Source: a virus | Reading direction: 5' to 3' (one strand) | Length of the DNA: 5,445 bases | Virus record (IMG/VR): IMGVR_UViG_3300022758_000011 | Span: 1-5,445 of that record | Shown here: positions 1,379 through 4,765 of the stretch, piece by piece | Layout of the letters: every line of letters starts with the position of its first letter | How positions within the stretch are numbered: the stretch's first letter is position 1 | Notes under the pieces: generated by a model | Database searches by the model: none | What the model was told of the DNA's origin: nothing | The model's input: only the letters and a program-made list of their open reading frames with translations | Program-made: the position numbers and the translations under genes

Positions 1379-1415
1379 GTGGGCCTAATCCTATCAAGAG
1401 AAGGATTAGGCCCAC
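1379..1415 (+). repeat. Perfect 14-bp inverted repeat (stem-loop A) directly after the VP4 stop
   Basis: GTGGGCCTAATCCT (1379-1392) pairs perfectly with AGGATTAGGCCCAC (1402-1415) around the 9-nt loop ATCAAGAGA. No T-run follows, so it is not a canonical intrinsic terminator. Confidence 0.85.
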
Positions 1416-1430
1416 ACCCAAGTTTCACAG

Positions 1431-1439
1431 CTATCCACG
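1431..1439 (+). promoter_or_regulatory. Isolated DnaA-box-like 9-mer CTATCCACG (7/9 to TTATCCACA)
   Basis: This is a direct read. It lies between stem-loops A and B, in the opposite orientation to the downstream TGTGGAAAA boxes. It could be a chance match. Confidence 0.2.
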
Positions 1440-1466
1440 GCTAATTAAAAGCATCATAAAACAAAG

Positions 1467-1499
1467 AAGGGGTCTCCTGTCGCCACGGGAGACCCCTTT
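1467..1499 (+). terminator. GC-rich stem-loop B, candidate intrinsic terminator for the VP2-VP4 transcript
   Basis: AAGGGGTCTCC (1467-1477) pairs with GGAGACCCCTT (1488-1498). Two more pairs form after a T/G mismatch, closing a 4-nt loop CGCC. An A-rich run precedes it, but the trailing T-run is only TTT, so it is weak as a terminator. Confidence 0.45.
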
Positions 1500-1502
1500 C
1501 GT

Positions 1503-1524
1503 GTACGCCCCTAGTAGGGGCTAC
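1503..1524 (+). repeat. Stem-loop C (6-bp GC stem plus a 3-bp outer stem with one bulge)
   Basis: GCCCCT (1507-1512) pairs with AGGGGC (1516-1521) around the loop AGT. Outer GTA (1503-1505) pairs with TAC (1522-1524), with C1506 bulged. It abuts stem-loop B. Confidence 0.5.
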
Positions 1525-1559
1525 CGAGGTACGAGACAAATCATAGGTTCAATTACGAT

Positions 1560-1601
1560 CACGCGCACGCACGCGCGAAACGCGCACGCACGCACGTGTA
1601 T
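1560..1601. repeat. Two alternating purine-pyrimidine (CG/CA) tracts containing a 14-nt direct repeat ACGCGCACGCACGC
   Basis: Strict Pu/Py alternation holds over 1560-1577 (18 nt) and 1580-1601 (22 nt). ACGCGCACGCACGC occurs at 1561-1574 and 1580-1593. There is a central GCGCG-AAA-CGCGC mini-palindrome and a CACGTG palindrome at 1593-1598. Confidence 0.85.
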
Positions 1602-1610
1602 TTGCAAACA

Positions 1611-1633
1611 TCATCTATTATATATAACTTGTT
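1611..1633. other. AT-rich element with the 10-bp perfect palindrome TTATATATAA (1618-1627); candidate unwinding element
   Basis: The sequence TCATCTATTATATATAACTTGTT is read directly. It is the most AT-rich short patch of the region and sits immediately 5' of the TAG-trinucleotide run. It contains AACTTG at 1626-1631. Confidence 0.35.
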
Positions 1634-1634
1634 G

Positions 1635-1649
1635 TAGTAGTAGTGGTAG
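1635..1649 (+). repeat. Trinucleotide run TAG-TAG-TAG-TGG-TAG (DnaA-trio-like)
   Basis: This is a direct read. It is separated by GCAC (1650-1653) from TGTGGAAAA (1654-1662). The published DnaA-trio is 3'-GAT-5', which reads 5'-TAG-3' on that strand, and it lies between a DnaA box and an AT-rich region. Confidence 0.35.
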
Positions 1650-1653
1650 GCAC

Positions 1654-1828
1654 TGTGGAAAAGTTGAAAACGATAATGATTCTTCGTTATCACGTGAAAA
1701 TTAAGAATTATTCGCAGTTGAAAACTTTGTTGAAAACTTGTTGAAATGTTGAAACACTTTAGCAGACTAAAATCTATTGCGTATAACGATGTTGAAAAGT
1801 ATGTGGAAAATGTTGAAACTGTTGAAAA
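1654..1828 (+). repeat. Same-orientation iteron array: TGTGGAAAA x2 plus (T)GTTGAAA(A/C/T) x8 (DnaA-box-like 9-mers)
   Basis: TGTGGAAAA occurs at 1654-1662 and 1802-1810. GTTGAAA starts at 1663, 1717, 1729, 1740, 1748, 1791, 1812 and 1821, with a degenerate GTGAAAA at 1694. Spacings are 8-12 nt, and 1802-1828 is three abutting 9-mers. I found no GTTGAAA elsewhere in the window by eye. All copies are on the + strand. Confidence 0.85.
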
Positions 1829-1856
1829 CTTAAGAAAACCGCGCCTGCAGCGGGCA

Positions 1857-1915
1857 AACCGTTCCGAAGCCGTCAACGCTTACGCGTTGCCACCTTCGAA
1901 GCGGTTAAAATTTTT
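1857..1915 (+). terminator. Long imperfect hairpin followed by AAAATTTTT; candidate terminator or insulator just upstream of the promoter
   Basis: The lower stem 1857-1869 / 1894-1906 has 13 positions: 11 Watson-Crick pairs, 1 G-T and 1 mismatch. Above an internal loop, the upper stem CAACGC (1874-1879) / GCGTTG (1884-1889) closes on the TTAC loop. A T5 run follows at 1911-1915. Confidence 0.5.
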
Positions 1916-1924
1916 ACGAAAAAC

Positions 1925-1952
1925 TTGAAAATAAACAAAAAAATGATATAAT
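1925..1952 (+). promoter_or_regulatory. Sigma70/SigA-type promoter with extended -10: TTGAAA - 16 nt - TGaTATAAT
   Basis: The -35 is TTGAAA (1925-1930). The TG is at 1944-1945 and the consensus -10 TATAAT at 1947-1952. The upstream flank (1907-1923) is A/T-rich. It lies about 35 nt upstream of the strongest SD in the genome (AAGGAGG, 1973-1979). Confidence 0.75.
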
Positions 1953-2405: not shown

Positions 2406-2647
2406 TGCTCAAACGTTATTATTCAATCTACGACAAGGTCTCCAAGTCCTACAGCGGACTTTTCGAGCAGCAGAACGACGCTGTTGCAAGCAGACTCTTT
2501 GAGAGCCAGCGGAAGAACAAAGACAGCTTTATCAGCATGAAGCCGGAAGACTTCGGGCTGTACTACATCTGCACCATGGAGGACGAAACCGGCCAGATTA
2601 TCGATAACACCAAAATGCTGGTGTGTGAGGGCAAGCCCAATGAGTGA
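2405..2647 (+). CDS. VP5: VP5-like small conserved non-structural protein (80 aa)
   Basis: The ATG overlaps the preceding TAA as TAATG. The pattern YSIYD..(K).Y...F...ND..A.R.F......PEDF.LYYI...D.ETGQI matches the small VP5/ORF5-type protein found next to VP3 in gokushoviruses. The family assignment is from memory, not a search. Confidence 0.8.
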   Translation: MLKRYYSIYDKVSKSYSGLFEQQNDAVASRLFESQRKNKDSFISMKPEDFGLYYICTMEDETGQIIDNTKMLVCEGKPNE

Positions 2648-3116
2648 GTTCAGAAGCGCATACAGCGGCCACGTGAGACATACGAGTCCAACCGGGAACG
2701 GACACGAGCCCGAATACGAGTACAAAGTAACCGAAACCGGCAGAGAGTTGGTAAAAACCGGCGAAACAGACATCTATGCACTCATCCAGAGCCGTCTCGA
2801 TGAAACCAAAATCGAAAACATCATCAAAAGAGCAACCTACGATCCGGCGGCGCTGGGCAGCCAGGAATGGCAGAACAGTGCACAGATGGTAGACATCACC
2901 GACGTGCCGACGGACTACCACACATGGTACAACCGCATAGAGGACGCAAAGAAGCAGTTTGAAGCGCTGCCCATCGAAGTCAAAAACAAGTGGGACAACG
3001 ATGTGGAAAAATACATCATGGCCTATGGAACCCAAGAGTGGGCAGACAAAATGGGCATAGCAAAACAGAAAGCCGAAGCGGAAAAACCGGCTGAAAAAAG
3101 TGAGGTGAAAGAATGA
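2640..3116 (+). CDS. VP3: VP3 internal scaffolding protein (158 aa from ATG 2640; the track's GTG 2625 start is less likely)
   Basis: GAGGG (2627-2631) lies 8 nt upstream of ATG 2640, which overlaps the upstream stop (ATGAGTGA). The C-terminal AKKQFEALPIEVKNKWDNDVEKYI resembles the conserved F..LP..(V/I)(R/K)..(F/W).N(D)... block of gokushovirus VP3. The stop overlaps the VP1 ATG as ATGA. Confidence 0.9.
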   Translation: MSEFRSAYSGHVRHTSPTGNGHEPEYEYKVTETGRELVKTGETDIYALIQSRLDETKIENIIKRATYDPAALGSQEWQNSAQMVDITDVPTDYHTWYNRIEDAKKQFEALPIEVKNKWDNDVEKYIMAYGTQEWADKMGIAKQKAEAEKPAEKSEVKE

Positions 3117-4765
3117 ACCGCAACAGTGAATACAACTTTGCACAGAATCCGCAGGTCGGAGTAAGCCGCAGCCGATTCCAACGCAACAGTGACAACAAAA
3201 CCACCTTTAATACCGGCGATCTCATCCCGATCTATCTGGATGAGGTGTTGCCGGGCGATACGCACCAAATCGACGTTGCCTGTGTCATGCGAATGGCGAC
3301 ACCCATCTTTCCTGTGATGGACAACGCCTTCTGCGACTTCTATTTCTTCTTCGTGCCTAACCGCTTGCTCTGGGAACATTGGAAGGAGTTCATGGGCGAG
3401 AACAAAGAAACCGCATGGACGCCCAAAACAGAATACAGCATACCGCAGGTGACGGCACCAAAAGGCGGATGGGCTGAGGGTACGCTAGCAGACTATCTGG
3501 GTCTGCCTACCAAAGTCGAGGGAATCAGCGTGAGCGCTCTGCCGGGCCGAGCCTATGGCCTTATCTACAACGAGTGGTTTCGAAACCAAAACGTCACACA
3601 GCCGACTCTCGTAGAGGTGACGGACGCGACCACGACCGGAAAAAACGACGGCAGTAATACCAACGACAGCGCAATCACGTTGGCAAAGCCTCTTAAGGCG
3701 GCAAAGGTGTTCGACTACTACACCGGGGCGCTGCCAGAACCTCAGAAAGGCGAGCCAATTACAATCCCGATAACGGGGAGCGCGCCAATCGGATTATATA
3801 ACGCCGCCACAGGAGACGTGACAACCAATTCAGCGAAGATGAAGGAAATCTTCGCTGATGCAGGGCTTGTCGCAACAAATGGGACATATCAAGCGAGTTA
3901 CTGGGATCCGGGTGACGGGCCAACAGCAAACCAAGGCTTAGCGGTGGGAAATACAACCGGCAGCATCTACAGGGGCGTAAGCCTCGGCGCAGACCTATCA
4001 AGCGTAAATGCAACAACCATCAACCAGCTGCGACAGGCATTCCAGATCCAGAAACTGTTGGAAAAAGACGCACGCGGCGGCACGAGATACCGCGAGGTAT
4101 TGCGTGAGCACTTTGGAGTTATCTCACCCGACAGCCGAATGCAAATTCCGGAGTATCTGGGCGGCTACAGACTGCCTATCAACGTGTCACAGGTTATCCA
4201 GACTTCTTCGACCGACAACACAAGCCCGCTGGGCAACACGGCGGCGCTGAGTGTGACCACGATGAACAAACCTATGTTTACCAAGTCCTTCACGGAACAC
4301 GGCTTTATCATGGGGCTCGCAGTTGTCCGTACTGACCAGACGTACCAGCAGGGCATCGACCGCATGTGGAGTCGTAAAGGCCGGTACGACTACTATTGGC
4401 CGGTACTGGCGAACATCGGTGAGCAAGCAATTCTAAACAAAGAGATCTATGCAGAAGGAAACCCAAATGACGACAAGGCATTTGGATACCAAGAAGCATG
4501 GGCCGATTACAGGTACAAGCCAAGCAAAGTAACGGGCCTGTTCAGGAGCAACGCAACGCAAAGCCTCGATGCATGGCACTATGCACAAGACTACAAATCC
4601 CTGCCATTCCTCGGAACGCAATGGATGGAGCAGGGCGACACCGAAATGAAGCGGACGTTAGCGGTGCAGAACCAGCCGGACTTTATCGCTGACTTCTACT
4701 TTATGAACAAAACAACGCGATGCATGCCGGTCTACAGTATTCCGGGACTTATCGACCATCATTAA
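3113..4765 (+). CDS. VP1: VP1 major capsid protein (F-like jelly-roll), 550 aa
   Basis: SD GAGGTG lies at 3102-3107. The N-terminal NPQVGVSRSRFQRNSDNKTTFNTGDLIPIYLDEVLPGDT closely mirrors the Chlamydia-phage/gokushovirus VP1 signature (KTTFDAGxLIPIxxDEVLPGDT). The size is typical. A variable Gly/Thr/Asn-rich insertion at about 3750-4010 sits where the gokushovirus three-fold protrusion loop lies. Confidence 0.97.
   Translation: MNRNSEYNFAQNPQVGVSRSRFQRNSDNKTTFNTGDLIPIYLDEVLPGDTHQIDVACVMRMATPIFPVMDNAFCDFYFFFVPNRLLWEHWKEFMGENKETAWTPKTEYSIPQVTAPKGGWAEGTLADYLGLPTKVEGISVSALPGRAYGLIYNEWFRNQNVTQPTLVEVTDATTTGKNDGSNTNDSAITLAKPLKAAKVFDYYTGALPEPQKGEPITIPITGSAPIGLYNAATGDVTTNSAKMKEIFADAGLVATNGTYQASYWDPGDGPTANQGLAVGNTTGSIYRGVSLGADLSSVNATTINQLRQAFQIQKLLEKDARGGTRYREVLREHFGVISPDSRMQIPEYLGGYRLPINVSQVIQTSSTDNTSPLGNTAALSVTTMNKPMFTKSFTEHGFIMGLAVVRTDQTYQQGIDRMWSRKGRYDYYWPVLANIGEQAILNKEIYAEGNPNDDKAFGYQEAWADYRYKPSKVTGLFRSNATQSLDAWHYAQDYKSLPFLGTQWMEQGDTEMKRTLAVQNQPDFIADFYFMNKTTRCMPVYSIPGLIDHH

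What the first reader, a model, noticed from the sequence alone, without database searches (positions are those of the whole stretch)
1654..1828. Dense one-orientation array of DnaA-box-like 9-mers (TGTGGAAAA / TGTTGAAAA) in a microvirus intergenic region
Seen in the sequence:
- TGTGGAAAA occurs twice (1654, 1802).
- GTTGAAA occurs eight times within 166 nt, usually preceded by T to give TGTTGAAA(A/C/T).
- All copies are on the + strand, spaced 8-12 nt apart, including three abutting 9-mers at 1802-1828.
- Both TGTGGAAAA copies head the same higher-order unit, TGTGGAAAA(T)GTTGAAA.
Established knowledge:
- The DnaA box is TTATCCACA, with relaxed consensus TTWTNCACA.
- The reverse complement of TGTGGAAAA is TTTTCCACA, a full match to the relaxed consensus.
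- The reverse complement of TGTTGAAAA is TTTTCAACA, one mismatch from it.
- A relaxed-consensus match is expected only about 0.3 times by chance in 5.4 kb on both strands.
- E. coli oriC uses closely spaced, same-orientation arrays of low-affinity boxes to build DnaA oligomers, and datA/DARS loci are box clusters that titrate or recharge DnaA.
Inference: the phage may recruit host DnaA to open or prime its replicative form, or may titrate DnaA to perturb host initiation. I am not aware of a DnaA-box array being described for Microviridae, which are thought to rely on the VP4 nickase plus host priming factors.
Alternatives: iterons for VP4 or another host factor, A-tract-driven DNA curvature activating the nearby promoter, or a repeated motif in a transcribed RNA.
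Basis: partly seen in the sequence, partly recalled or inferred. Interest (0 to 1): 0.85.

Follow-up and report, generated by a model that had tools for sequence, protein, structure and literature searches.

The report
Host-origin-like DnaA module in a microvirus
A tiny single-stranded DNA gut phage carries, in its large non-coding region, what looks like a working copy of the part of a bacterial chromosome origin that the initiator protein DnaA binds and opens, written in the same sequence variant as the origins of Oscillospiraceae/Ruminococcus gut bacteria. This suggests that the phage recruits its host's chromosome initiator and also points to its likely host.

Summary
Ten GT(T/G)GAAA boxes lie on the + strand at 1654-1828, against 1.6 expected in the whole genome.

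Directly 5' of the first box, on the same strand, lie:
- a 4-nt spacer (GCAC)
- five triplets, TAG TAG TAG TGG TAG (1635-1649)
- a 79% A+T stretch (1598-1634)

This is the order, strand, polarity and spacing of the bacterial oriC "basal unwinding system": DnaA boxes, GC spacer, DnaA-trios (3'-GAT-5'), AT-rich unwinding element.

The odd box variant TGTTGAAAA is the dominant repeat in the dnaA-dnaN intergenic regions of four Oscillospiraceae/Ruminococcus MAGs, and present in a fifth (Negativibacillus). Four of the five show the same layout: AT-rich, TAG-type trios, a G-rich 4-mer, then TGTTGAAAC.

More than 150 gokushovirus genomes carry the module. It occurs in either orientation and in different intergenic regions, alongside VP4 proteins only 32-98% identical. 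It is absent from 37 of 45 relatives with 51-57% VP1 identity. A distant microvirus lineage has the same layout with perfect TGTGGATAA boxes.

The best reading is an accessory, host-derived DnaA-binding and unwinding module acting on the double-stranded replicative form. What it does downstream is inferred, not shown: replication start, help for VP4, or a DnaA sink. I found no description of it in the searchable literature.

The parts
1598..1634 (+). AT-rich stretch, the candidate duplex-unwinding element. It ends in the phage-specific conserved AACTTGTTG (1626-1634).
   Evidence: 76-79% A+T against 52% for the genome. It is conserved upstream of the trios in all module-bearing relatives. The 5' part of the 9-mer varies among lineages (AACTTG, AATTTG, AAGTTG, TACTTG, TATTTG) while TTGTTG stays fixed. 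Host origins have a TATATA-rich stretch at the same place but lack AACTTGTTG.
1635..1649 (+). DnaA-trio array TAG TAG TAG TGG TAG (5'-TAG-3' = 3'-GAT-5')
   Evidence: TAGTAGTAG is unique in the genome, with 0.01 expected. Relatives have TAG at the three box-proximal positions. Four host origins have TAG-type trios here: (TAG)5 in three and TAG TAG TAA TAG in L276. The window alone has TGG at the second-proximal position.
1650..1653 (+). 4-nt G/C-rich spacer (GCAC) between the trios and the first box
   Evidence: The spacer is 4 nt in 87 of 124 non-redundant phage modules. It is 4 nt (GGGG or GGTA) in four host origins. The published bacterial average is 4 bp.
1654..1670 (+). Trio-proximal tandem boxes: TGTGGAAAA (1654-1662) and AGTTGAAAA / GTTGAAAAC (1662-1671)
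   Evidence: TGTGGAAAA is a full match to TTWTNCACA and one mismatch from TGTGGATAA. The GTGGAAA form is enriched at the first position: 65 of 124 modules, against 16% of all boxes. The same head-to-tail arrangement is seen with canonical boxes in L409 (TGTGGATAAGTTGATAAG).
1671..1715 (.). Spacer between box clusters. Its sequence varies but its length is conserved.
   Evidence: The sequence differs between relatives, while the box offsets from the trios stay at 4, 12, 66, 78, 89 and 97.
1716..1755 (+). Second box cluster: AGTTGAAAA (1716), TGTTGAAAA (1728), TGTTGAAAT (1739), TGTTGAAAC (1747)
   Evidence: 29 of 30 nt are identical to a three-box run in the Ruminococcus sp. dnaA-dnaN region. 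In one subgroup of relatives the 1728 box is the perfect consensus TGTGGATAA.
1756..1789 (.). Second variable spacer
   Evidence: Two unrelated sequence versions occur among close relatives, while the flanking boxes are kept.
1790..1828 (+). Third box cluster: TGTTGAAAA (1790), TGTGGAAAA (1802), TGTTGAAAC (1811), TGTTGAAAA (1820)
   Evidence: It is conserved at offsets of about 141, 152, 161 and 170 from the trios. About a quarter of the modules add one or two inverted boxes (TTTTCCACA) here.

Best explanation
The array is a set of DnaA boxes in the sequence variant of the phage's probable host group (Oscillospiraceae/Ruminococcus, order Oscillospirales). It forms the double-strand-binding part of a complete oriC-type basal unwinding module carried by the phage.

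Proposed mechanism, acting on the double-stranded replicative form:
1. Host ATP-DnaA binds the boxes. The trio-proximal pair at 1654-1670 acts as the nucleation site. The two further clusters, about 5 and 4 helical turns away, act as cooperative loading or oligomerisation sites.
2. A DnaA filament extends 3'->5' along the + strand onto the TAG trios (1635-1649).
3. The filament stretches and opens the adjacent AT-rich DNA (1598-1634).
4. The complementary (CTA)n strand presents TnnT motifs, the DnaD recognition element known in Bacillus subtilis.

What is shown: the anatomy, its strong conservation, its independence from orientation and from the VP4 lineage, and its match to host origins.

What is inferred: that DnaA binds and opens it.

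What the opening is for, with my estimates given that DnaA binds:
- About 0.45: it loads the host helicase or primosome, so that the replicative form can start DnaA-dependent (theta-type) replication, or be maintained in step with the host.
- About 0.2: it helps the HUH nuclease VP4 by melting DNA next to the conserved hairpin at 1379-1415. In minimal relatives this hairpin directly abuts the AT-rich end.
- About 0.25: it mainly sequesters or senses DnaA.

The module is accessory and was probably acquired from a host origin. It is not part of the core microvirus replication machinery.
For: 1. Statistics: 11 GTKGAAA against 1.58 expected, with 10 in 175 nt and all on one strand. TAGTAGTAG is unique, against 0.01 expected, and lies 11 nt 5' of the first box.

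2. Match to the published definition of the basal unwinding system. That definition requires a box with at most 2 mismatches, a tandem second box with at most 4, a spacer of about 4 bp, at least 3 NAN trios (3'-GAT-5' commonest) on a 5' tail relative to the boxes, and flanking AT-rich DNA. All of these are found at 1598-1670.

3. Host origins:
- In L209 (a 53-kb Oscillospiraceae contig) the same layout lies between dnaA and dnaN, with rpmH, rnpA, yidC and jag upstream.
- Its box density is 28 per kb there, against 0-2 per kb elsewhere.
- L237 (Ruminococcus sp.), L172 and L276 (Oscillospiraceae) show the same layout next to dnaA. L249 (Negativibacillus) has (TAG)6 but only weak trio-proximal boxes, with three GTTGAAA boxes further on.
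- The commonest 7-mer in the first three of these regions (L209, L237, L172) is GTTGAAA (45 copies), and GTGGAAA has 14. This is close to the phage's 8:2 ratio.
- Phage and host share 29 of 30 nt over a three-box run.

4. Conservation pattern in 124 non-redundant phage modules:
- 4-nt spacer in 87.
- Phased box offsets.
- Invariant G2 T3 G5 A6 A8 within the boxes, with only G/T at position 4 and A/T at position 7. These are the positions that interconvert TGTTGAAAA, TGTGGAAAA and TGTGGATAA.
- Variable spacers between clusters.

5. Independence from phage genes:
- 100 genomes have the module in the gene orientation, downstream of VP4.
- 23 have it inverted, just upstream of a VP4 only 32-34% identical.
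- 4 have it inverted and downstream of VP4.
- Coding-strand base composition is the same in all classes.

6. Accessory nature. All 31 contigs of at least 4.9 kb with VP1 identity of at least 79% carry 7-11 boxes. 37 of 45 relatives at 51-57% VP1 identity have no array and no associated trios.

7. Independent replicate. The 4.7-kb microviruses L391 and L393 (VP1 37%, VP4 28% identical) carry AT-rich DNA, (TAG)5-6, GCAT, two TGTGGAAAT boxes, and 4-5 perfect TGTGGATAA boxes.

8. No significant single-strand structure (z +0.93 as DNA, -1.0 as RNA), no Rfam match and no Pfam match for overlapping ORFs. This fits a duplex protein-binding element.
Against: - No binding or unwinding experiment exists.
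- That GTTGAAA boxes are the DnaA sites of Oscillospirales is inferred only from their position in the dnaA-dnaN region next to trios.
- Eight of the ten boxes break the C at position 6 of TTWTNCACA.
- The window's second-proximal trio is TGG (central G). Its three consecutive TAGs therefore sit 10 nt from the box rather than 4. Only this genome shows the change.
- The second box starts 8 nt after the first, tighter than the usual 9-12 nt.
- The host of these phages has not been identified by any independent line.
- Known microvirus replication (phiX174) needs no DnaA, and many relatives do without the module, so any replicative role cannot be essential.
- In the window about 185 nt separate the conserved hairpin from the AT-rich end. 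This weakens the VP4-assist idea.
Confidence: 0.75

Rival explanations
1. DnaA does bind, but the module is a sink or sensor rather than a replication element. Multi-copy replicative forms with about 10 boxes each would soak up ATP-DnaA, as datA or the Bacillus DnaA-box clusters do. This would delay host initiation, or couple phage gene expression to host DnaA status.
For: A dense same-orientation box cluster resembles titration loci. The module is accessory, as a host-manipulation device would be. Other phages carry DnaA-box clusters that are not thought to be origins, for example the T5 injection-stop region, which has 8 boxes including TTATCAACA.
Against: Titration needs only boxes. Here the trios, the 4-nt spacer and the AT-rich flank are the most strictly conserved parts, and in bacteria they serve unwinding. 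The promoter for the downstream genes (1925-1952) lies about 100 nt beyond the last box, behind a hairpin. The module also sits in different places relative to genes, which argues against a fixed operator role.
Confidence: 0.18
2. The repeats are iterons for the phage Rep protein VP4 or another phage protein, marking the rolling-circle origin. Plasmids with HUH-type Rep proteins and the eukaryotic circular Rep-encoding ssDNA viruses (CRESS-DNA viruses) have such iterons.
For: Direct repeats at roughly helical spacing next to the rep gene are typical of iterons. AACTTG at 1626-1631 recalls the phiX174 nick-site core CAACTTG (from memory). The module is usually adjacent to VP4.
Against: The same repeats accompany VP4 proteins of 32-98% identity. 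37 of 45 relatives at 51-57% VP1 identity lack any repeats yet must still have a VP4 origin. The module occurs in both orientations, while coding-strand composition is unchanged. The repeat is the dominant repeat of bacterial dnaA-dnaN regions that contain no phage genes. AACTTG is not invariant. A different element, the GTGTCA-flanked hairpin at 1379-1415, is present in nearly all relatives, including almost all of those without the module, and is a better origin candidate.
Confidence: 0.04
3. The boxes are bound by some other host DNA-binding protein that also acts at the host origin. An OmpR/WalR-type response regulator (TGTWAH direct repeats at 11-bp spacing) or a Spo0A-like factor (TGTCGAA) would be examples. 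The phage would then couple itself to that regulator.
For: TGTTGAA is one mismatch from the Spo0A box, and TGTTGA resembles response-regulator half-sites (from memory). Some spacings are 11-12 nt. Spo0A boxes are known in Bacillus phage phi29 and overlap DnaA boxes in oriC (from memory).
Against: The variation among relatives runs towards TGTGGAAAA and TGTGGATAA, the DnaA consensus, and not towards TGTCGAA or TGTTAA. The fixed 4-nt link to TAG trios is a DnaA-specific arrangement. The canonical-box version in L391/L393 keeps the same layout.
Confidence: 0.04
4. The repeats act at the RNA or peptide level: a repeated motif in a transcript, the 60-aa ORF at 1746-1928, or a single-strand complementary-strand origin like those of G4, M13 or phiX174.
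For: ORF 1746-1928 reads the abutting 9-mers in frame as VE-rich repeats. One GenBank relative annotates a hypothetical ORF over the array.
Against: The orientation flips relative to transcription and to the packaged strand. Indels and replaced flanks break the ORF in relatives. There is no Pfam match and no Rfam match. Folding is no better than shuffled sequence.
Confidence: 0.02

Closest known systems
Bacterial oriC basal unwinding system (Bacillus subtilis incC type: DnaA boxes 6/7, GC spacer, DnaA-trios, AT-rich element; Richardson/Murray; Pelliciari 2021, PMC8287927)
   Same: Same parts, in the same order and on the same strand: AT-rich DNA, at least three 5'-TAG-3' trios, a 4-nt spacer, and tandem same-orientation boxes reading TGTGG/TGTTG on the trio strand. 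The complementary (CTA)n strand offers TnnT motifs like the DnaD recognition element.
   Different: It sits on a 5.3-kb single-stranded-DNA phage that has its own HUH Rep protein, not between dnaA and dnaN. It has ten boxes almost all in one orientation. The box variant is non-canonical. Its function has not been tested.
dnaA-dnaN origin regions of Oscillospiraceae/Ruminococcus MAGs found here (L209, L237, L172, L276)
   Same: Same box variant (GTTGAAA more common than GTGGAAA), the same trio block (mostly (TAG)5) plus a 4-nt spacer and TGT(T/G)GAAA, and up to 29 of 30 nt identical over box runs.
   Different: The host regions are longer (0.4-1.3 kb), hold 10-35 boxes in both orientations, and lack the phage-specific AACTTGTTG between the AT-rich DNA and the trios.
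DnaA-titrating or DnaA-recharging box clusters (E. coli datA and DARS; B. subtilis DnaA-box clusters)
   Same: A cluster of closely spaced DnaA boxes outside the chromosome origin.
   Different: Those loci have no trios or unwinding element (from memory). Here these are the best-conserved parts.
DnaA boxes in other mobile replicons: P1 oriR, F, pSC101 and RK2 plasmid origins; lambda pR region; the phage T5 injection-stop region (bioRxiv 10.1101/866236)
   Same: A mobile element uses host DnaA sites. T5 even uses the same position-6 variant, TTATCAACA.
   Different: Those origins combine a few boxes with the element's own initiator and iterons. None is described with a trio array, and none is in Microviridae.
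Complementary-strand origins of ssDNA replicons (phiX174 primosome assembly site, G4 and M13 hairpin origins, sso of rolling-circle plasmids, and the DnaA-box hairpin 'A site' of the ABC primosome)
   Same: They are host-factor entry sites on an ssDNA replicon. The A site also uses a DnaA box.
   Different: Those act as folded hairpins on one specific strand (from memory). This region has no significant single-strand structure and works in either orientation.
Iterons of HUH-Rep replicons (pMV158 family plasmids, geminiviruses and circoviruses)
   Same: Direct repeats near a rep gene.
   Different: Iterons co-vary with their Rep protein. These repeats do not, and they match a bacterial origin instead.

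Membership tests
oriC basal unwinding system (BUS) | A DnaA box with at most 2 mismatches to the consensus, lying next to the trios | tested here: met
   TGTGGAAAA at 1654-1662 has one mismatch to TGTGGATAA and none to TTWTNCACA.
oriC basal unwinding system (BUS) | A tandem second box in the same orientation, with at most 4 mismatches | tested here: met
   AGTTGAAAA at 1662-1670 has 3 mismatches. Its start-to-start distance of 8 nt is tighter than usual, but the same arrangement occurs with canonical boxes in L409.
oriC basal unwinding system (BUS) | At least three consecutive NAN trios (3'-GAT-5' preferred) within 16 bp of the box, on the 5' side of the strand reading TGTGGATAA | tested here: met
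   TAG TAG TAG lies at 1635-1643, then TGG, then TAG at 1647-1649, and the box starts at 1654. Relatives have an uninterrupted (TAG)3-6 with a 4-nt spacer.
oriC basal unwinding system (BUS) | AT-rich unwinding element beyond the trios | tested here: met
   1600-1632 is 79% A+T, against 52% for the genome.
oriC basal unwinding system (BUS) | ATP-DnaA binds the boxes, oligomerises on the trios and separates the strands | not testable with these tools
   This needs purified cognate DnaA and a strand-separation or footprinting assay.
oriC basal unwinding system (BUS) | Chromosomal location next to dnaA/dnaN, serving chromosome replication | tested here: not met
   The element is on a 5,318-nt microvirus genome, between VP4 and small phage ORFs. 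It is a BUS-type module but not a chromosome origin.
DnaA-titration locus (datA-like) | A cluster of DnaA boxes without unwinding elements | tested here: not met
   The boxes are clustered, but the trios and the AT-rich element are present and conserved.
Rep (VP4) iteron origin | Repeats co-vary with the Rep protein and are present wherever that Rep lineage is | tested here: not met
   The same boxes go with VP4 at 32-98% identity. 37 of 45 relatives at 51-57% VP1 identity lack them.
Single-strand (complementary-strand) origin | Stable hairpins on the packaged strand, in a fixed orientation | tested here: not met
   z = +0.93 against shuffles as ssDNA. Both orientations occur.

The most novel reading that the evidence does not exclude
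A sizeable group of gut gokushoviruses has captured the DnaA-dependent unwinding core of its host's chromosome origin. The double-stranded replicative form would then behave as an oriC-type mini-chromosome: started by host DnaA, possibly once per host cell cycle. That would allow plasmid-like carriage (pseudolysogeny) without an integrase, or DnaA-gated firing of the VP4 rolling-circle origin. The box variant would at the same time serve as a sequence-readable marker of the host, here Oscillospirales. Another microvirus lineage carries a canonical-box version of the module.
Probability: 0.3. Interest if true: 0.9.

Novelty: new variant of a known kind. Interest (0 to 1): 0.82.

Why it matters
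Microviridae are the textbook case of replication by a phage HUH nuclease plus host elongation factors, with no role for the chromosomal initiator. Several things follow if a conserved, host-matched origin-opening module sits in their genomes.

1. These abundant but uncultured gut phages may use DnaA, and in Firmicutes DnaD/DnaB/DnaI, to start or regulate replication of the replicative form. This opens a route to episomal persistence. Another ssDNA phage is already known to persist as extrachromosomal dsDNA.

2. Matching the box and trio variant to bacterial origins gives a new, purely sequence-based clue to the host of microviruses, which currently have almost no host assignments.

3. It indicates that Oscillospirales use TTTTCAACA-type DnaA boxes. 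That matters for predicting origins in these genomes.

4. It gives the DnaA field a natural minimal module of about 230 bp, sampled in hundreds of variants, for studying the rules of box-trio spacing and box phasing.

Tried and rejected
1. Rfam scan of the whole window at E <= 1: no match.

2. Pfam on the three ORFs overlapping the region (1501-1704+, 1746-1928+, 1559-1876-): nothing.

3. Single-strand folding of 1598-1832 as DNA and RNA: no better than shuffles. This rules out hairpin-type complementary-strand origins and structured RNA.

4. AACTTG as a phiX174-like VP4 nick site inside the module: dropped. The hexamer varies among lineages, the module flips relative to the genes, and module-less relatives exist.

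5. A hairpin made of a forward and an inverted box (an ABC-primosome-like A site): an inverted box occurs in only about a quarter of the modules and not in the window.

6. The pattern scan AACTTGTTGTAGNNGTAGTAG also hit four large contigs (L092, L110, L112, L113). These are chance matches inside Ser/Thr-rich coding repeats.

7. Search for microvirus genes or prophages among the 120 bacterial loci from the box scan: none. There is therefore no independent host link.

8. Canonical-box scan of viral contigs: 17 hits on 9-162-kb contigs. Several have a full BUS layout, but I could not tell whether they are phage DNA or host origin DNA, so they are not used as evidence.

9. The small ORF downstream of triple-box arrays in four Oscillospirales loci has no Pfam family.

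10. Host DnaA domain IV compared with E. coli: most residues that I recall as base-contacting are conserved, with T435S and P423A/V changes. This is suggestive for the altered box, but I cannot verify the contact map here, so I give it no weight.
Full report
**What the window is**

The 5,445 bases are a 5,318-nt circle with a 127-nt terminal redundancy. It is a gokushovirus. All genes lie on the + strand:
- VP4/Rep, 351-1373
- small ORFs from 1986
- ORF5-family protein, 2405-2647
- Chlamydia-phage-type scaffold protein, 2625-3116
- F-type capsid protein VP1, 3113-4765
- VP2, from 4869 across the junction

The finding lies in the 612-nt non-coding region 1374-1985. The closest GenBank genomes are faecal gokushoviruses from human, pig and dog, at about 85% identity.

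**Check of the observation**

GTTGAAA occurs eight times, all on the + strand between 1663 and 1827, and nowhere else on either strand. GT[TG]GAAA occurs 11 times against 1.58 +/- 1.30 in dinucleotide-preserving shuffles (0 of 200 shuffles reach 11), and ten of these lie in the region.

Minor corrections:
- A third TGTGGAAAA lies at 3002, in coding DNA.
- The boxes form three clusters (1654/1662; 1716/1728/1739/1747; 1790/1802/1811/1820). The clusters are separated by 54 and 43 nt. The array is not uniform.

Reading 5' from the first box on the same strand gives GCAC (1650-1653), then TAG TAG TAG TGG TAG (1635-1649), then AACTTGTTG, then a 79% A+T stretch. TAGTAGTAG is unique in the genome, with 0.01 expected.

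This is the layout of the bacterial oriC basal unwinding system:
- one or two DnaA boxes
- a spacer averaging 4 bp
- at least three DnaA-trios, 3'-GAT-5' being the commonest, on a 5' tail relative to the boxes
- AT-rich DNA beyond the trios

The definitions come from PMC8287927 and PMC10201434. 3'-GAT-5' is 5'-TAG-3'. The strand that carries the trios reads the box as TGTGGATAA, exactly as here. The complement, (CTA)n, contains the TnnT motif that DnaD recognises in B. subtilis.

**Conservation**

Relatives found through VP4 (48 loci), through GenBank (47 records share the intergenic DNA; some share nothing else at the DNA level) and through a pattern scan (at least 116 microvirus contigs) all keep the module.

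In the alignments the boxes and trios are fixed, while the two inter-cluster spacers are replaced by unrelated sequence of the same length.

In 124 non-redundant modules:
- The trio-to-box spacer is 4 nt in 87.
- Boxes sit at phased offsets of 4, 12, 66, 78, 89, 97, about 141, 152, 161 and 170. These are the window's own positions.
- Within boxes, G2 T3 G5 A6 A8 are invariant. Only position 4 (T 84%, G 16%) and position 7 (A 96%, T 4%) vary. These two positions interconvert TGTTGAAAA, TGTGGAAAA and the perfect consensus TGTGGATAA.
- The consensus-like GTGGAAA form is enriched at the trio-proximal box: 65 of 124, against 16% overall.

One subgroup of relatives has a perfect TGTGGATAA at the position of the window's 1728 box. 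Another adds an inverted TTTTCCACA.

**The variant belongs to a host group**

Among the 120 loci returned were many Oscillospiraceae, Ruminococcus and Ruminococcaceae MAG contigs. None of the 120 loci contains microvirus genes.

Five loci contain dnaA:
- L209, L172 and L276 (Oscillospiraceae)
- L237 (Ruminococcus sp.)
- L249 (Negativibacillus)

In L209 the gene order is jag, yidC, rnpA, rpmH, then dnaA, the array, and dnaN.

On the strand complementary to dnaA the intergenic region reads GTATATATGTT-(TAG)5-GGGG-TGTTGAAAC-TGTTGAAAAC, followed by about 20 more boxes in both orientations. Box density is 28 per kb there, against 0-2 per kb in the flanks.

L237, L172 and L276 have the same layout, with GGTA or GGGG spacers. 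L276 has TAG TAG TAA TAG as its trios. L249 has (TAG)6 but weaker trio-proximal boxes.

The most frequent 7-mer in the L209, L237 and L172 regions is GTTGAAA (45 copies). GTGGAAA has 14. The phage and L237 share 29 of 30 nt over a three-box run.

So the "one-mismatch" boxes are best read as the normal DnaA boxes of Oscillospirales, and the phage module as a compact copy of such an origin's unwinding core.

The host DnaA proteins keep R399, D433, H434 and T436 (E. coli numbering). They have T435S and P423V/A. I note these changes but cannot interpret them with the tools at hand.

**Independence from the phage's own genes**

Among 128 genomes:
- In 100 the module is in the gene orientation, downstream of VP4.
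- In 23 it is inverted and lies about 67 nt upstream of the start of a VP4 that is only 32-34% identical to the window's.
- In 4 it is inverted and downstream of VP4.
- One case could not be placed.

Coding-strand base composition is the same in all classes (A 0.36, T 0.17-0.18). An element that works in either orientation, in different intergenic regions and with very different Rep proteins is acting as duplex DNA and through a factor the lineages share, that is, a host factor.

A set collected by VP1 similarity alone shows that the module is accessory:
- All 31 contigs of at least 4.9 kb with VP1 identity of at least 79% have 7-11 boxes.
- Only 8 of 45 relatives at 51-57% VP1 identity have the module.
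- The other 37 have no repeated 7-mer array of any kind. None has trios next to a box cluster. One has an isolated TAGTAGTAG.

Nearly all of these genomes, with or without the module, do have a GTGTCA-flanked hairpin with an A(T/A)CAAG loop. In the window it lies at 1379-1415. It is the better candidate for the VP4 origin.

**An independent replicate**

A scan for TAGTAGTAG-N4-TGTKGAAA found two 4.7-kb microviruses, L391 and L393 (VP1 37% and VP4 28% identical to the window's). They carry AT-rich DNA, (TAG)5-6, GCAT, two TGTGGAAAT boxes, and four or five perfect TGTGGATAA boxes.

The same architecture built from the textbook DnaA box, in a far-removed microvirus, is hard to explain except through DnaA.

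**Alternatives**

- RNA or peptide: no Rfam match, no Pfam match, folding no better than shuffled sequence, ORFs not conserved, and orientation flips.
- VP4 iterons: rejected for the reasons given under gene independence above.
- Another host regulator (Spo0A-like or response-regulator-like): the variation runs towards the DnaA consensus, and the fixed link to the trios is specific to DnaA.
- DnaA sink or sensor: this remains a real rival for the purpose of the module. It does not explain why the trios, the spacer and the AT-rich flank are the most strictly kept parts.

**Mechanism proposed**

- Shown: the anatomy, the conservation, the host match, and the independence from orientation and from Rep.
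- Inferred: on the replicative form, host ATP-DnaA binds the boxes, extends onto the TAG trios of the + strand, and opens 1598-1634.
- Further inferred, with decreasing support: (a) host helicase or primosome loading gives DnaA-dependent replication or host-coupled maintenance of the replicative form; (b) opening of the DNA next to the conserved hairpin helps VP4, since in minimal relatives the hairpin abuts the AT-rich end, at 66-70 nt from the VP4 stop or start; (c) DnaA sequestration.

Weak points:
- There is no experiment.
- The Oscillospirales box variant is inferred.
- The window has TGG at the second-proximal trio.
- The host is not independently known.
- The module is dispensable in many relatives.

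**Novelty**

Full-text searches found no paper that links Microviridae or gokushoviruses to DnaA boxes, oriC or DnaA-trios.

Known parallels:
- DnaA boxes in plasmid origins and in lambda (from memory).
- The eight DnaA boxes of the phage T5 injection-stop region, including TTATCAACA.
- Episomal dsDNA persistence of the ssDNA phage FLiP.

A complete trio-plus-box unwinding module on an ssDNA phage, matched to a host group's origin variant, appears to be undescribed. I file it as a new variant of a known kind: an oriC-type unwinding module in a new carrier and context.

Noticed in passing
window 1379-1415 (flank from 1374); relatives: A perfect 14-bp hairpin, GTGGGCCTAATCCT-ATCAAGAGA-AGGATTAGGCCCAC, starts right after the VP4 stop codon and is preceded by TGTCA. 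A homologous GTGTCA-flanked hairpin with an A(T/A)CAAG loop is present in nearly all related gokushoviruses, including those without the DnaA module. It occurs in either orientation relative to the coding strand. The loop complement (CTTGAT) recalls the phiX174 nick-site core. It is a likely VP4 origin. The orientation flips raise the question of which strand each lineage packages.
   Followed up: partly
window 1559-1597: An alternating purine-pyrimidine G/C-rich direct repeat, ACGCGCACGCACGCGCG-AA-ACGCGCACGCACGCACG, lies directly upstream of the AT-rich element and is prone to forming Z-DNA. Similar (CG/CA)n tracts flank the module in distant lineages (L049, L050, L052). It could be a supercoil-absorbing or bubble-limiting element.
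   Followed up: no
window 1416-1600: About 185 nt between the conserved hairpin and the module are present in only some close relatives and cleanly absent in others, where the hairpin abuts the AT-rich end. The segment holds a second strong hairpin (1467-1498, then TTTCG) and GCCCCTAGTAGGGGC (1508-1522).
   Followed up: partly
window 1645: The window has TGG where all aligned relatives have TAG (one has TAA) at the second box-proximal trio. This could be a singleton polymorphism, a sequencing error or a tolerated variant.
   Followed up: partly
window 1838-1952: GC-rich inverted repeats (1843-1859; 1857-1879/1884-1906) are followed by AAAATTTTT. Next comes a near-consensus promoter, TTGAAA-16 nt-TGATATAAT (1925-1952), and then an AAGGAGG ribosome-binding site before the ORF at 1986. 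These are Firmicutes-style expression signals. Relatives replace 1830-1920 with an unrelated conserved GC-rich segment (TAAAGGCAGTCCG...CATGACC).
   Followed up: no
L391 and L393 (IMG/VR 4.7-kb contigs): A distant microvirus lineage (VP1 37%, VP4 28% identical) carries the same module layout built from canonical boxes: (TAG)5-6, GCAT, two TGTGGAAAT boxes, and 4-5 perfect TGTGGATAA boxes. The module is inverted relative to the genes.
   Followed up: partly
L407/L410/L418, L409, L413, L417, L421, L422, also L367, L402, L375 (IMG/VR contigs of 9-162 kb): Large contigs labelled viral carry a textbook unwinding module: AT-rich DNA, (TAG)3-6, GGGG or GGGC, then TGTGGATAA with further boxes. They may be host origin DNA within prophage calls, or other phages or plasmids with oriC-type origins. 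I did not resolve which.
   Followed up: no
L187, L196, L215, L222 (Oscillospirales MAGs); L204: Triple GTTGAAA arrays also lie just upstream of a conserved small ORF of 84-95 aa, uncharacterised (MIKG(I/V)(S/N)K.I.E...YFEKA), which in L196 is followed by a SpoU-family methylase. In L204 they lie between gyrB and gyrA. These are candidate DnaA-regulated promoters in these bacteria.
   Followed up: partly
L209, L237, L172 dnaA genes (alignment A1): DnaA domain IV of the GTTGAAA-variant bacteria has T435S and P423V/A (E. coli numbering), while R399, D433, H434 and T436 are kept. This is a possible basis for accepting A at box position 6.
   Followed up: no
It is isolated and probably chance or coding-driven.
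   Followed up: yes
L227 6680-6760 (Ruminococcus sp. MAG): A run of GTTGAAA/GTGGAAA repeats lies inside a protein-coding sequence, read as VETVENSVENFVDIVETVENYVEKEF. This shows that such arrays can also arise from V-E-rich coding repeats, which is a caution for pattern-only scans.
   Followed up: no
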